A DNA stretch of 64,000 bases from Diadema antillarum (taxonomy: Eukaryota), in the NCBI RefSeq assembly GCF_040938485.1, contig NW_027270999.1, forward strand, positions 1,488,001 to 1,552,000. Reading direction: 5' to 3'. Positions within the stretch are counted from its first letter, which is position 1, and each line of letters starts with the position of its first letter. The position numbers were made by a program. Positions 57,701-60,700 of the stretch are shown piece after piece.

Positions 57701-60700
57701 ATCACAAAGAAGATGTCAGCAAAAAGGACCATGAGGAGACTGGGCCCCAACCCTCTCTCCAACAGTTTCCATCAGACACACTGCTAAATCATCTACAGAA
57801 AAGCATACACTCACCAGTCTGTGTAGTCTTTTCAGAAGCAGGTGATGTAGAGTGCATAATTTTGTGTGCTGCTCATATAGATATTGCTTTGTTGATACAG
57901 TATTCCTGTCAAGTAGACAAACATCTACTTCAAAATAGATCAAGGGAAGTTTGATGTTGTACTGGTATCAGTTGTGACATGAGTCTATCACCTTTATAAT
58001 GTTGAACAGCAATGATCAAATGAAAGTGAAGTGTACACTTTATTACCTTTGCATTCCCCCCCCCCCCCCAAAAAAAAAAAAAGTATAGATGAACTCTAAA
58101 CATTGGTTTGCTTAGTAAGAATATTTCTAATTTGACAGAAGTTTGTGAGCAGTATGCATGCATTATCTGCATCAAGTTGTACTAATCTCATGAAACAATG
58201 CATCTTGTGCAGTGATAGTTTGTCCTTGGACTTTTTAGTTTTTGTACATTTGTTCAGAGCATATGATATCTTTAATGAGACAAAGCATACATACTAATAA
58301 ATGAAGTTAGCAATGAAAATTTTTGCTTATAATTGTCAATAAACATAATAAAACATGTATCTATATTCATGCAATTTTTCTTTTCTCTCTCTCTCTCCTG
58401 GTCTGTGTTGAATTTTGCAGATTCTGTCTTGGAGGAGAAAGTGTCGCAACTTTGGAGCAAGCTATCGACCTATAAACCATTCAGAGCTTGGAAACTTGGA
58501 CTCTACCTGACAAAATATGGGGTGGGTATGAAATTCATGAGCTGGCAGCTACTTGTTCTACATTTAATTCGGTGGCTTCCATATACGGTGCGCCACCTAT
58601 CGGTTGTAGCGGACAGGCCGAAATCCGCAATGCCTTATGGGAAAAAGTTGACATCAAAATGACTCGCATTCTATGCACATGCAGCAGCGCAGCTCAGCTC
58701 AGCTGGCCGCGCCAGGCGGGCGGGCGCCCGGGCTGGTTGGCCTGAAGTTAGGCCCTAACATGAGTAACAGATGACAAAATCAACAAATCACAGAAAAAGC
58801 AAACTTACGCTGCAACACATCCACAGCCAGCAGAATGGACTAAAGCGTCTGTTGTGAGTAGTACCCATGTAGCGTACCGTTCTGCCATTTGACGCTGCTC
58901 AGGCTTCACAGTTGCCTTGATGTAAGTGGTCTGGGTGGTTCTGGATGTGTCCCATATGGACATCTTCAACGTGATTGTCCTTAAACATAAGGTAGCCATC
59001 ATCTTTTTTTGAAGCTTGCTAGCCTTTCTGGGGTCCAATCACATTGATTGATAAGGTAGGCAAACACATCTCCAAGCGACAGATCAGGCATAGACTAGTA
59101 CTCAGATCCCTAGTCCATCTTACTGGCCTATCGTACAATTACAAGTTCACTTCAGTCCCATCCGCTGATCGTACACACCTTCGTTTCTTTTCCGATTCTA
59201 CGTGGTCACACGGTTCAAGAACATCATATTTATCCCCACACTTCTCCGAAAGCTGAACAAGTTCGTCCTTTGTTTTTCCTCGCGCTGGTATGCCACGATC
59301 ATTCAGGTATTTCTTCAGTTCGTCGACTCTAGTTACCGCGTATACCGATCGCCAGGCGCTAGGCCAGTACAGTTATTGTACAGTAAACAGTGCATTGCGC
59401 ATGCAGCTAGTGTCTGCTGCGCTGCAGCGTAGCTCTAGCTGCATAGCTAGCGCGATGTCGACCCCAAAGTTGAAAATCGGCCTGTCCGCTACAACCGATA
59501 GGTGGCGCACCGTATATGGAATCCACCGAATTGAATTATATTGTGTGTTTGTGTTAAGGGTTCTATTTGCATGATTGGTCACAAAGTATTAAATATTCAA
59601 AGTCTTATGGGTGTCGGTTACTCATGTTCTTGTTTGTTATTTTGCTTTTGCTTTTTCATGAAACAGAAAAGTTGTTTGAAATAGGAAACATCAATTACAA
59701 TGAAACAAATCATTAATTGTTGAATGTACTATGTCTTCACTTTGAATTCTTTGAAGTATTTTTTGAAGAGTTTGTTTGAGTTTGTGATAGCATATTTGAT
59801 AAAGGAGAGACATTTATGTTGAGAGGTAGGCCCCCTATACAAATGAAGTACAGATATCAATTTATATGACTGTATTAAAGGTATTCAGGTCTTGATGCTA
59901 ATATTTTTCTCTGGTGGCCTGTTAGGCTCACTAAAGTCTTTGAAACTGAAACTTTGGTGGCCAAAAAAAGAAATGTATTGGCCCAAAAAACTTAAAGGAA
60001 ACATAACAATCCATTTTGAATTCAAAGTGCTCAATCGGGCCATCAAAAGATAGTCTGTTTGGAAATCCCTATAGCCCGATATCAATTTTTAGTGGCCCTG
60101 GGCCAATGGTCACCACTAGTATCATGTGTGTGTGTGTGTGTGTGAAAGTGAAAGAGTGAGAGAAACAGACAAAGAAGGACATAGAAAGAGAGAGGGGGGG
60201 GGGGGGGATGGGAGAGTGTGTGTGAGTAGTAAGGATATGTCTTAGTTGTACAGAAAGGAGTAGAGATATCCAGTGTGATTAACCCGTTAAGGACGAGTGC
60301 CAAGTATACTCAGCCAAGTGTCTATAGGAAATGCATGTTGTAGCAAAATCAATCCGTCCTCAACGGGTTAAGCAACCTTTCATGAAGTCATTTGTTGTTC
60401 TTTCACAATTGTACTCTGCAGCCTTTAGGAGATTTTGAACTCCCCAAGTTCCTCCCAACTTTGAGATGTTACATCGGAACAGCTGTCCCTGAAGACTACA
60501 CTGGTTCTCCCAAACTGAAGAAGCTCTTGCACTGGTTCAAACATTTGGTGAGATAATAGAAATTAGTTTTGTTCATACATATGTAGCTTGTGCCAGATGG
60601 GGAAAAAAATGGTAAATTTCAGAGTGCAGAGTATGATTTTGCTCTATTGTGATTTAAGTAGAGAAATGCTTTTTAAAATTTCCTTTCTGAAATATTCAAT

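What the first reader, a model, noticed from the sequence alone, without database searches (positions are those of the whole stretch)
58566..59532. 52-bp-TIR transposon carrying a decayed, intron-containing SAP + SWIM gene
Seen: nearly perfect long TIRs, AATT on both flanks, and a minus-strand ORF remnant with a SAP-like motif followed by W..DL..P....D...YL / F..DDGY..F / KA.V.PE.RQ / Y.TWV / SAGCGCVA, ending precisely at a GTAAGT donor. Established: SWIM fingers begin CxC; SWIM-containing accessory proteins (often with PHD and YqaJ nuclease) accompany the transposase in some two-gene DNA transposons such as ISL2EU-type elements, and SAP+SWIM occur in Zisupton. The CGGTGG ends and AATT flanks do not fit the TSD rules I recall for those groups. 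Inference: deletion derivative of a possibly unclassified two-component DNA transposon; best candidate here for an undescribed system.
Basis: partly seen in the sequence, partly recalled or inferred. Interest (0 to 1): 0.68.

Follow-up and report, generated by a model that had tools for sequence, protein, structure and literature searches.

The report
Broken ISL2EU-type transposon remnant
This is a dead, internally deleted 959-base copy of what is most likely a known kind of animal cut-and-paste transposon (ISL2EU type) that keeps only the broken first exon of its helper nuclease gene, so it is ordinary.

Summary
There are two 52-nt terminal inverted repeats (51 of 52 matching), AATT on both flanks, and a minus-strand SAP-like gene remnant that ends at ...CGCVA + GTAAGT.

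The remnant is homologous to the first exon of animal SAP / CxC..CxH / YqaJ (lambda-exonuclease-fold) proteins. The search gave 37 hits, the best at E 6.7e-22, and all 3 full-length hits carry Pfam YqaJ.

Published ISL2EU (PHIS superfamily) elements carry exactly such a second gene. They insert at A|AT|T, which leaves AAT...ATT around the element (PMC4482050 passages). The window reads AAT-TCGG...CCGA-ATT.

In two relatives a translated homologue of this TIR lies about 40-50 codons upstream of the gene's ATG (0 of 500 shuffles each). This makes it an element gene, not a captured host fragment.

The copy has one in-frame stop, three frame changes and no start codon. It has no nuclease part and no transposase (0 of 153 window ORFs).

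The transposase, other copies and Repbase/Dfam could not be checked. Verdict: a non-autonomous ISL2EU-type deletion derivative, of low interest.

The parts
58566..58569 (.). Left flank AATT. Under the ISL2EU rule this is A + AT (duplication, 58567-58568), with the element's first base T at 58569.
   Evidence: Sequence read directly. The A|AT|T rule is from PMC4482050 passages.
58570..58621 (+). Left terminal inverted repeat, 52 nt, starting CGGTGG.
   Evidence: 51 of 52 match the right arm, and 0 chance matches in 100 shuffles.
58622..58802 (.). Left subterminal, G+C-rich non-coding stretch. It holds the deletion junction and what is left of intron 1. No coding similarity was found.
   Evidence: ORF list. 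tblastn with 10 relatives gives no hit here except a read-through of P0029 that runs to 58772 across a stop. No inverted similarity to the right subterminal part.
58803..58808 (-). GTAAGT splice donor of intron 1 (phase 2, after GC of an Ala/Gly codon).
   Evidence: 5 of 37 relatives (P0002, P0004, P0006, P0030, P0033) end at this residue. P0014, P0026 and P0029 continue into D(D)G.CKH.
58809..59342 (-). Decayed exon 1 of the SAP / CxC..CxH / YqaJ accessory gene.
   Evidence: tblastn hits fall in two frames: 59342-58923 (frame -3) and 58924-58808 (frame -1). Against P0002 the identity is 45.7% over 140 columns and 57.5% over 40. phmmer best E 6.7e-22.
59253..59330 (-). SAP-like helix-extended loop-helix motif.
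   Evidence: Pfam SAP E 7.7e-5, 22.7 bits (cut-off 23.9), residues 15-40 of the 59372..59142 frame. Relatives P0002 (29.6 bits) and P0046 (29.9 bits) pass the cut-off.
59139..59141 (-). In-frame TAA stop, inside about 6 extra nucleotides compared with relatives (..VNL*LYDR.. against ..VNLYGR..).
59089..59102 (-). First frame change, between WTRDL and MPDLSLGDVF.
   Evidence: ORF frames. Alignment to relatives, read by eye.
59004..59010 (-). Second frame change, at a run of seven A between ..ASFKK and DDGYLMF.
   Evidence: read by eye. A homopolymer, so a sequencing slip cannot be excluded.
58921..58930 (-). Third frame change, between ..HIQNHPDH and YIKATVKPEQRQ.
   Evidence: The two tblastn pieces switch frame at 58923/58924.
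58817..58825 (-). CGC = the CxC that opens the SWIM-type CxCx(n)CxH finger. The CxH half is not in the window.
   Evidence: relatives: C.C.A..(D)G.CKH. SWIM support is weak: Pfam SWIM in 2 of 25 relatives, best E 0.002 and under the cut-off; ZSWIM8 E 0.0069.
59343..59476 (-). Right subterminal stretch between the TIR and the gene (former 5' leader/promoter region). There is no in-frame ATG. It holds a 22-nt unit present 2.1 times at 59396-59442.
59477..59528 (-). Right terminal inverted repeat, 52 nt.
   Evidence: Its translation matches the N-terminal extensions of P0003 and P0005.
59529..59532 (.). Right flank AATT. Under the ISL2EU rule this is the element's last base A (59529) + AT (duplication, 59530-59531) + T.
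   Evidence: PMC4482050 passages.

Best explanation
The feature is a non-autonomous, internally deleted copy of an ISL2EU-type (PHIS superfamily) cut-and-paste DNA transposon of an invertebrate-like animal genome.

The autonomous parent (inferred, not seen) would carry two genes between these 52-nt TIRs. One is a DDE transposase. The other is an accessory gene for a SAP / SWIM-like / lambda-exonuclease-fold (YqaJ) protein, which starts just inside the right TIR and points inwards.

A deletion with one breakpoint in intron 1 of the accessory gene removed everything up to about 180 nt from the left TIR. What remains is the two ends, the leader and exon 1.

The copy can encode nothing useful. It has no start codon, one in-frame stop and three frame changes, and it lacks the nuclease part and the transposase. 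It could move only if a transposase supplied in trans by an autonomous relative bound its TIRs, cut, and rejoined it at an AATT site with a 2-nt stagger (A|AT|T).

Shown here: the anatomy, the homology of the remnant, the domain content and fold of full-length relatives, and the position of the gene next to the TIR in two relatives.

Inferred: the transposase type, the stagger, mobilisation in trans, and the role of the nuclease (end processing or gap repair).
For: 1. TIRs and flanks. The TIRs are 52 nt with 51 of 52 matching and are unique in the window. The flanks read AAT-T...A-ATT. This equals the published ISL2EU footprint: AT duplication, conserved A before and T after, target A|AT|T, TIRs of 6-259 bp (PMC4482050 passages; PMC4122938 passages).

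2. Homology of the remnant. A frame-1 read of the remnant, with X at the two stops, finds 37 proteins at E <= 1e-3 and 11 at E <= 1e-10 among 1.84 billion representatives. All 3 hits longer than 400 aa that align over the whole module (P0014, P0026, P0029) carry Pfam YqaJ at E 4.5e-16, 2.7e-18 and 1.7e-10. In the 25-protein alignment, 13 of 25 carry YqaJ and 10 of 25 carry SAP. The P0014 model (mean pLDDT 78.8) matches lambda exonuclease at E 6.5e-9 with TM 0.65. The profile matches exonuclease 3syy at E 2.8e-28.

3. Published gene content. [quoted passage not shown]

4. Gene next to the TIR. Six relatives have N-terminal extensions. The extensions of P0003 and P0005 align to the translated right TIR plus flank with scores 48 and 47, and 0 of 500 shuffles reach either score. 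So the gene sits next to a homologous TIR in other insertions as well.

5. Many decayed fragments. The hits include many short, frame-shifted fragments, as expected of a transposon gene.

6. Foreign composition. The element has G+C 0.497 and CpG o/e 0.90. The rest of the window has 0.381 and 0.54, and the 1-kb flanks have CpG o/e 0.08 and 0.22.
Against: - The defining gene, the PHIS-type DDE transposase, was not seen. None of the 153 window ORFs of 75 aa or more has a transposase domain. No eukaryotic DNA collection was on hand.
- Published ISL2EU TIRs usually start GG. This one starts TC (AT reading) or CG (AATT reading).
- Because AATT is a palindrome, one insertion cannot tell a 2-nt duplication from a 4-nt or a 0-nt one. 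All three readings give the same empty site.
- YqaJ is not exclusive to ISL2EU. Insect relatives fuse it to a Mutator-like transposase domain (PF20700; P0049, P0051).
- 4 of the 6 N-terminally extended relatives show no TIR-like translation (75, 369, 54 and 441 of 500 shuffles reach their scores).
- Two word-index searches with the window's own pieces found nothing. No close copy (above about 57% identity) was seen, and the copy number in the source genome is unknown.
Confidence: 0.75

Rival explanations
1. It belongs to a lineage outside ISL2EU, an unclassified two-gene DNA transposon. This lineage would make a true 4-nt AATT duplication and happens to use a YqaJ-type accessory gene.
For: AATT is identical on both sides, so a 4-nt duplication is equally readable. 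The termini are not the usual GG. The YqaJ domain has joined other transposases as well (PF20700 fusions). The transposase was not seen.
Against: The only TIR transposons reported with a separate YqaJ gene in the papers read are ISL2EU. A search for YqaJ, transposon, TIR and transposase listed only those three eukaryotic transposon papers among the six that hold the term YqaJ (listing only). The A|AT|T footprint explains AATT...AATT if the element ends in T...A. The translated relatives P0003 and P0005 keep the same AATTC start (read by eye).
Confidence: 0.13
2. The TIR element captured a piece of a host SAP-SWIM gene, as Pack-type elements do. On this view the remnant is not a gene of the element.
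For: Only one exon is present and it ends in intron sequence. No second copy is in the window.
Against: In two independent relatives a homologous TIR lies about 40-50 codons upstream of the same gene's ATG, in the same orientation (0 of 500 shuffles each). The gene family is found mostly as decayed fragments. The remnant begins at the gene's 5' end, at the expected distance from the TIR.
Confidence: 0.05
3. It is a Zisupton, a Spy, or a Mutator-like element with YqaJ.
For: Spy is the sister group of ISL2EU and inserts in AT-rich palindromes. Mutator-YqaJ fusions exist.
Against: Zisupton makes 8-bp duplications, and the 8 nt on each side here differ. Spy inserts between AAA and TTT without duplication and has no YqaJ gene; here the 0-nt reading gives TAA|TTG, and a YqaJ-type gene remnant is present. 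None of the 3 full-length SAP-SWIM relatives has PF20700.
Confidence: 0.05
4. It is a chance inverted repeat or an assembly artefact.
For: One frame change lies in a run of seven A, which could be a sequencing slip.
Against: A 51-of-52 inverted repeat with 0 matches in shuffles, a foreign composition and protein homology at E 6.7e-22.
Confidence: 0.01

Closest known systems
[quoted passage not shown]
   Same: The TIR length is within the published range. The AAT...ATT footprint fits the A|AT|T target. It carries (a remnant of) an accessory gene of the YqaJ-exonuclease type. The host is an animal.
   Different: The termini start TC/CGG instead of the usual GG. The transposase was not seen. In this library I found no description of the SAP + CxC..CxH N-terminal module of the accessory protein. 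Searches: where the three ISL2EU papers hold 'swim' 0 times, where 'swim' and 'sap' both occur 0 times.
Spy transposons (sister group of ISL2EU)
   Same: AT-rich palindromic target. The reading without duplication cannot be excluded from one copy.
   Different: Spy inserts between AAA and TTT and mostly has a single ORF without YqaJ. Here the flanks are TAA|TTG under that reading, and a YqaJ-type gene remnant is present.
Zisupton (KDZ) transposons
   Same: SAP and SWIM motifs are said to occur in Zisupton proteins (recalled, not tested here).
   Different: Zisupton makes 8-bp duplications (PMC12730594 passages), and there is none here. In the relatives the SAP-SWIM module is joined to a lambda-exonuclease fold, not to a transposase.
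Lambda exonuclease / YqaJ / viral alkaline exonuclease (PD-(D/E)XK 5'-3' exonucleases)
   Same: Full-length relatives of the remnant have this domain and fold (Pfam YqaJ; 3syy at E 2.8e-28; 3slp at E 6.5e-9).
   Different: The window copy has lost this part entirely. The animal proteins add an N-terminal SAP and CxC..CxH module of about 210 residues, modelled with block pLDDT values mostly between 81 and 96.

Membership tests
ISL2EU (PHIS superfamily) | AT duplication inside an A|AT|T target (AAT[element]ATT) | tested here: met
   The flanks read ..TTTAAT-TCGGTGG...CCACCGA-ATTGAAT... The rule is from PMC4482050 passages. This is one insertion only, and the palindrome also allows a 4-nt or a 0-nt reading.
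ISL2EU (PHIS superfamily) | TIRs of 6-259 bp | tested here: met
   52 nt, 51 of 52 matching.
ISL2EU (PHIS superfamily) | TIRs usually begin with GG | tested here: not met
   The TIR begins TCGG (AT reading) or CGG (AATT reading). 'Usually' is the paper's word, so this is not a strict criterion.
ISL2EU (PHIS superfamily) | [quoted passage not shown] | tested here: met
   The remnant is homologous to exon 1 of such proteins: 3 of 3 full-length hits carry Pfam YqaJ. The nuclease part itself is absent from the window. YqaJ also occurs fused to PF20700 in insects, so the feature is not exclusive.
ISL2EU (PHIS superfamily) | DDE transposase of the ISL2EU clade with a THAP/HTH domain | not testable with these tools
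   0 of 153 window ORFs of 75 aa or more has a transposase domain. No eukaryotic genome collection, Repbase or Dfam was available. The genome-contig collection (bacteria and archaea) gave nothing.
Zisupton | 8-bp target site duplication | tested here: not met
   The 8 nt on each side are ATTTAATT and AATTGAAT. The rule is from PMC12730594 passages.
Spy | Insertion between AAA and TTT without duplication; a single transposase ORF | tested here: not met
   The 0-nt reading gives TAA|TTG, and a YqaJ-type gene remnant is present. The rule is from PMC4122938 passages.
piggyBac / Kolobok | TTAA duplication (recalled, from no call) | tested here: not met
   The flanks are AATT, not TTAA.
SAP domain (PF02037) | Match to the Pfam model at or above the curated cut-off | tested here: inconclusive
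   The window copy scores 22.7 bits against a cut-off of 23.9, E 7.7e-5. Homologous relatives pass: P0002 29.6, P0004 24.5, P0046 29.9 bits. 10 of 25 match at E <= 0.1.
SWIM zinc finger (PF04434) | CxCx(n)CxH signature (signature recalled) and a match to the model | tested here: inconclusive
   The window has only the CxC (58817-58825). Relatives have C.C...C.H. Pfam SWIM matches 2 of 25, best E 0.002 and 18.1 bits against a cut-off of 19.6. ZSWIM8 scores E 0.0069 by profile and E 0.034, probability 0.41, by fold.

The most novel reading that the evidence does not exclude
The element marks a separate branch beside canonical ISL2EU. This branch would have TC/CGG termini conserved across distant relatives, a true 4-nt AATT stagger, and an accessory gene placed directly inside one TIR.

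Its first exon (SAP + half a SWIM finger) would be kept in short derivatives because a truncated DNA-binding product, or its promoter, acts on transposition, for example as a dominant inhibitor.

Five relatives that end exactly at the exon-1 border are compatible with this. They are explained more simply by ORF callers reading into the intron.
Probability: 0.08. Interest if true: 0.45.

Novelty: new member of a known kind. Interest (0 to 1): 0.15.

Why it matters
It matters little. It is a worked example showing that AATT...AATT flanks are the expected footprint of an ISL2EU element ending in T...A, so such copies should not be flagged as unclassified.

Two side results have modest value:
- The ISL2EU-type accessory nuclease has a well-folded N-terminal SAP plus CxC..CxH module of about 210 residues. 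The papers I could search do not describe it.
- The gene starts within about 115-160 nt of one TIR in three independent insertions.

The high CpG content of the element in a CpG-poor intron-like setting suggests a fairly recent insertion.

Tried and rejected
- Word-index protein searches with the window's own pieces found nothing. The frame-3 piece, searched against longer proteins, gave 13 candidates and none scored. The frame-1 read, searched against proteins of near length, gave 4 candidates and none scored. The tool calls this weak evidence.
The sources, names and contig numbers of the hits remain unknown, except for those listed.
- Rfam found 0 matches in the window.
- The TIR core searched in genome contigs gave 0 matches.
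With P0002 it matched 75 pattern stretches, none confirmed. That collection holds only bacteria and archaea, so this says nothing about the animal genome.
- I looked for inverted similarity beyond the 52-nt TIR (a long-TIR idea). It was rejected: 16 of 300 shuffles reach the score.
- I tested for TIR-like translation in 6 N-terminally extended relatives. Only 2 were significant.
- The Atlas look-alike search with P0002 gave eukaryotic (Cnidaria, Mollusca) SAP clusters at 0.94-0.97 and a YqaJ/SAP cluster at only 0.76. These are leads, not evidence.
- I considered and rejected Zisupton, Spy, piggyBac/Kolobok and a Mutator-YqaJ fusion (see the membership test).
- I made no joined or spliced model. 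Only one exon is present, and its two reading frames were searched apart.
- The supplements of PMC4482050 (family tables, target logos, TIR logos) were closed. They may hold ISL2EU families with TC termini, or this very family.
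Full report
**Setting.** The window is eukaryotic and, by my reading, not human. It has G+C of 0.31-0.44 and intron-split exons of a lipoamide acyltransferase-like gene. These are Biotin_lipoyl at 32423-32839 and 2-oxoacid_dh at 39205-39672 and 43811-44287. It also has many microsatellites and short repeats and one N run at 8173-8310, which I left alone. 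Rfam finds nothing in the window.

**Observation.** The described structure is there.
- The repeat finder gives inverted arms 58562-58621 and 59477-59536, 97% complementary over 60 nt.
- Aligned from the CGGTGG ends, the repeat is exactly 52 nt with 51 of 52 matching. Beyond it the two subterminal parts are no more alike than chance: the score is 21, reached by 16 of 300 shuffles.
- A 34-nt TIR pattern with up to 3 mismatches occurs twice in the window, against 0.00 in 100 shuffles.
- blastn of the element against the window returns only itself and its TIRs.
- AATT stands at 58566-58569 and at 59529-59532.
- The element proper is 959 nt (58570-59528). It has G+C 0.497 and CpG o/e 0.90. The rest of the window has 0.381 and 0.54, and its two 1-kb flanks have CpG o/e 0.08 and 0.22. 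It is compositionally foreign and not yet CpG-depleted.

**The gene remnant.** On the minus strand, stop-to-stop ORFs and the sequence show the following parts:
- A SAP-like stretch at 59330-59253. Pfam SAP gives E 7.7e-5 and 22.7 bits, just under the 23.9 cut-off.
- An in-frame TAA at 59141-59139.
- WTRDL, then a frame change within 59102-59089.
- MPDLSLGDVFAYL..WTPERLASFKK, then a frame change at a run of seven A (59010-59004).
- DDGYLMFKDNHVEDV, then a frame change near 58925.
- YIKATVKPEQRQ..YATWVLL..SAGCGCVA, followed directly by GTAAGT (58808-58803).
- No ATG in frame upstream of the SAP stretch.

The frame-3 piece and a frame-1 read with X at the two stops were searched apart.

**Relatives.**
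- The exhaustive HMMER search with the frame-1 read found 37 proteins at E <= 1e-3, 11 at E <= 1e-10 and none at E <= 1e-30. The best is P0002, at E 6.7e-22 and 47% identity.
- tblastn of ten hits back onto the window places them at 59342-58923 in one frame and at 58924-58808 in another. Against P0002 the identity is 45.7% over 140 columns and 57.5% over 40.
- Most hits are short, and several are themselves frame-shifted fragments.
- Five of the 37 (P0002, P0004, P0006, P0030, P0033) end at ..C.CVAA/G, the very residue where the window's exon ends. The three long hits that cover the whole module (P0014 544 aa, P0026 560 aa, P0029 475 aa) read on into ..D(D)G.CKH..A.LF, which completes a CxCx(n)CxH pattern. 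I read this as a conserved phase-2 intron that ORF callers run into. That is inference.
- All three long hits carry Pfam YqaJ, at E 4.5e-16, 2.7e-18 and 1.7e-10.
- In the 25-protein alignment A1, 13 of 25 match YqaJ, 10 of 25 SAP, 2 of 25 PHD and 2 of 25 SWIM (best E 0.002, under the cut-off).
- The A1 profile matches exonuclease 3syy (E 2.8e-28), mimivirus R354 (7e-19) and lambda exonuclease (2.3e-9). It also matches ZSWIM8 weakly, at E 0.0069.
- An AlphaFold model of P0014 has mean pLDDT 78.8 and pTM 0.56. Residues 11-210 are modelled at block pLDDT values of 73-96, mostly 81 or higher, followed by a disordered linker. The model matches lambda exonuclease at E 6.5e-9 with TM 0.65, and LHK-Exo with TM 0.75.
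- Named relatives are animal proteins. They come from Saccostrea cucullata, Onthophagus taurus, Ephemera danica and Anoplolepis gracilipes.

**Is it the element's own gene?** Six relatives have N-terminal extensions upstream of the SAP motif. I aligned these extensions to the three-frame translation of the window's right flank plus TIR.
- P0003 (..NSVDSQYDAPP..) scores 48 and P0005 (..QFSVFAIRCAT) scores 47. In both cases 0 of 500 shuffles reach the score.
- The other four are not significant: 75, 369, 54 and 441 of 500 shuffles reach their scores.

So in two other insertions a homologous TIR lies about 40-50 codons upstream of the same gene's ATG, in the same orientation. By back-reading the codons (by eye), both begin with the same AATTC. 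This argues for an element gene and against a captured host fragment.

**Which transposon?** Han et al. 2015 (PMC4482050; I read passages only) describe ISL2EU elements as follows:
- They have AT duplications with a conserved A before and a conserved T after, so the target is A|AT|T.
- Their TIRs are 6-259 bp and usually start GG.
- Autonomous elements are about 4.8 kb with two ORFs. One is a DDE/HTH/THAP transposase. [quoted passage not shown]
- They are found only in animals.

Han et al. 2014 (PMC4122938, passages) and PMC9179366 (passages) say the same of the second ORF.

The window reads ..TTTAAT-TCGGTGG...CCACCGA-ATTGAAT... That is the ISL2EU footprint for an element ending in T...A. Because AATT is a palindrome, 4-nt, 2-nt and 0-nt readings all give the same empty site (..TTTAATTGAAT..). 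One copy therefore cannot settle the stagger.

Other groups fit less well:
- Zisupton makes 8-bp duplications (PMC12730594 passages), which are absent here.
- Spy inserts between AAA and TTT and lacks the YqaJ gene.
- The start of the TIR (TC or CGG, not GG) is the one tested feature that departs from the usual ISL2EU description.

**What could not be shown.**
- The transposase was not seen. No window ORF of 75 aa or more has a transposase domain: 0 of 153, made up of 141, 10 and 2.
- No eukaryotic DNA collection, Repbase or Dfam was on hand.
- The bacterial and archaeal genome collection gave nothing.
- The paper supplements were closed.
- YqaJ is also found fused to a Mutator-like transposase domain in insect proteins (PF20700; P0049, P0051). 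The nuclease alone therefore does not prove ISL2EU.

**Mechanism.** The parent element is inferred to have carried a transposase and the SAP/SWIM-like/lambda-exonuclease gene. That gene starts about 160 nt inside the right TIR and points inwards. A deletion from intron 1 to about 180 nt from the left TIR left a 959-nt shell. This shell can only be moved in trans, by a transposase that recognises the 52-nt ends. The accessory nuclease of intact relatives has the fold of a 5'-3' exonuclease (shown for P0014). Its role in end processing or gap repair is a guess. The near-identical TIRs and the high CpG content suggest a fairly recent insertion. The four disabling lesions may have been inherited from an already dead master copy (inference). 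One of them, the run of seven A, could be a sequencing slip.

**Print status.** In the library searched I found no description of the SAP + SWIM-like N-terminal module of the ISL2EU accessory protein.
- the three ISL2EU papers hold 'swim' 0 times.
- 5 papers hold both YqaJ and SWIM, and none is on transposons by title or start of abstract.
- 'swim' occurs 0 times and 'sap' 0 times.

Repbase reports are outside this library.

**Verdict.** The feature is a real, well-described structure. It is best explained as a non-autonomous ISL2EU-type deletion derivative, that is, a new member of a known kind, and of low interest.

Noticed in passing
window 58420-58530 (+): A possible 111-nt host exon (..DSVLEEKVSQLWSKLSTYKPFRAWKLGLYLTKYG). 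It has a polypyrimidine tract and AG before it and GTGGGT after it. It ends 39 nt upstream of the element, so the insertion would lie at the start of an intron. Pfam finds nothing, and the exon is unverified.
   Followed up: partly
window 56584-57161: Inverted repeat with 170-nt arms, 91% complementary and 238 nt apart, with a second nested pair at 56765-56991 (I3 and I21). It is foldback or MITE-like and lies 1.4 kb from the element.
   Followed up: no
window 2270-3250 and 60733-62063: Two copies of one repeat. It combines a (GTCC)n/(GTAC) microsatellite with units of about 150 nt rich in GGTCAAAGGTCAA (D1, D3, D9, D13, D14).
   Followed up: no
window 29385-30166 and 9980-10322: A tandem array of about 157 nt with 5 units (D2). 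It is matched in inverted orientation by 9980-10273 (294 nt, 91%).
   Followed up: no
window 42322-42967: A 300-nt direct repeat, 99% identical, with starts 346 nt apart (D4), between exons of the acyltransferase-like gene.
   Followed up: no
window 32423-32839, 39205-39672, 43811-44287 (+): Exons of a lipoamide acyltransferase (E2) gene: Biotin_lipoyl at E 1.2e-14, and 2-oxoacid_dh at E 1e-12 and 1.1e-21.
   Followed up: partly
window 54458-54754 (-) and 52657-53145 (-): A zinc-knuckle exon (zf-CCHC_3, E 9.2e-8) and a long Arg/Ser/Lys/Asp-rich ORF on the same strand. They are probably one host gene.
   Followed up: no
window 10370-10400, 16680-16720, 35016-35032, 58056-58068 and others: Long poly-C (poly-G) tracts recur through the window (D7 and D18).
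   Followed up: no
proteins P0049, P0051, P0052, P0053 (relatives, not in the window): Insect proteins of about 780-920 aa fuse a Mutator-like transposase domain (PF20700, E 7.5e-90 in P0049) to a YqaJ nuclease. This is a second, different marriage of this nuclease with a transposase.
   Followed up: partly
window 58570-59528 against its flanks: CpG o/e is 0.90 inside the element, against 0.08 and 0.22 in the 1-kb flanks. Either the insertion is young or the element escapes the process that depletes CpG around it.
   Followed up: partly
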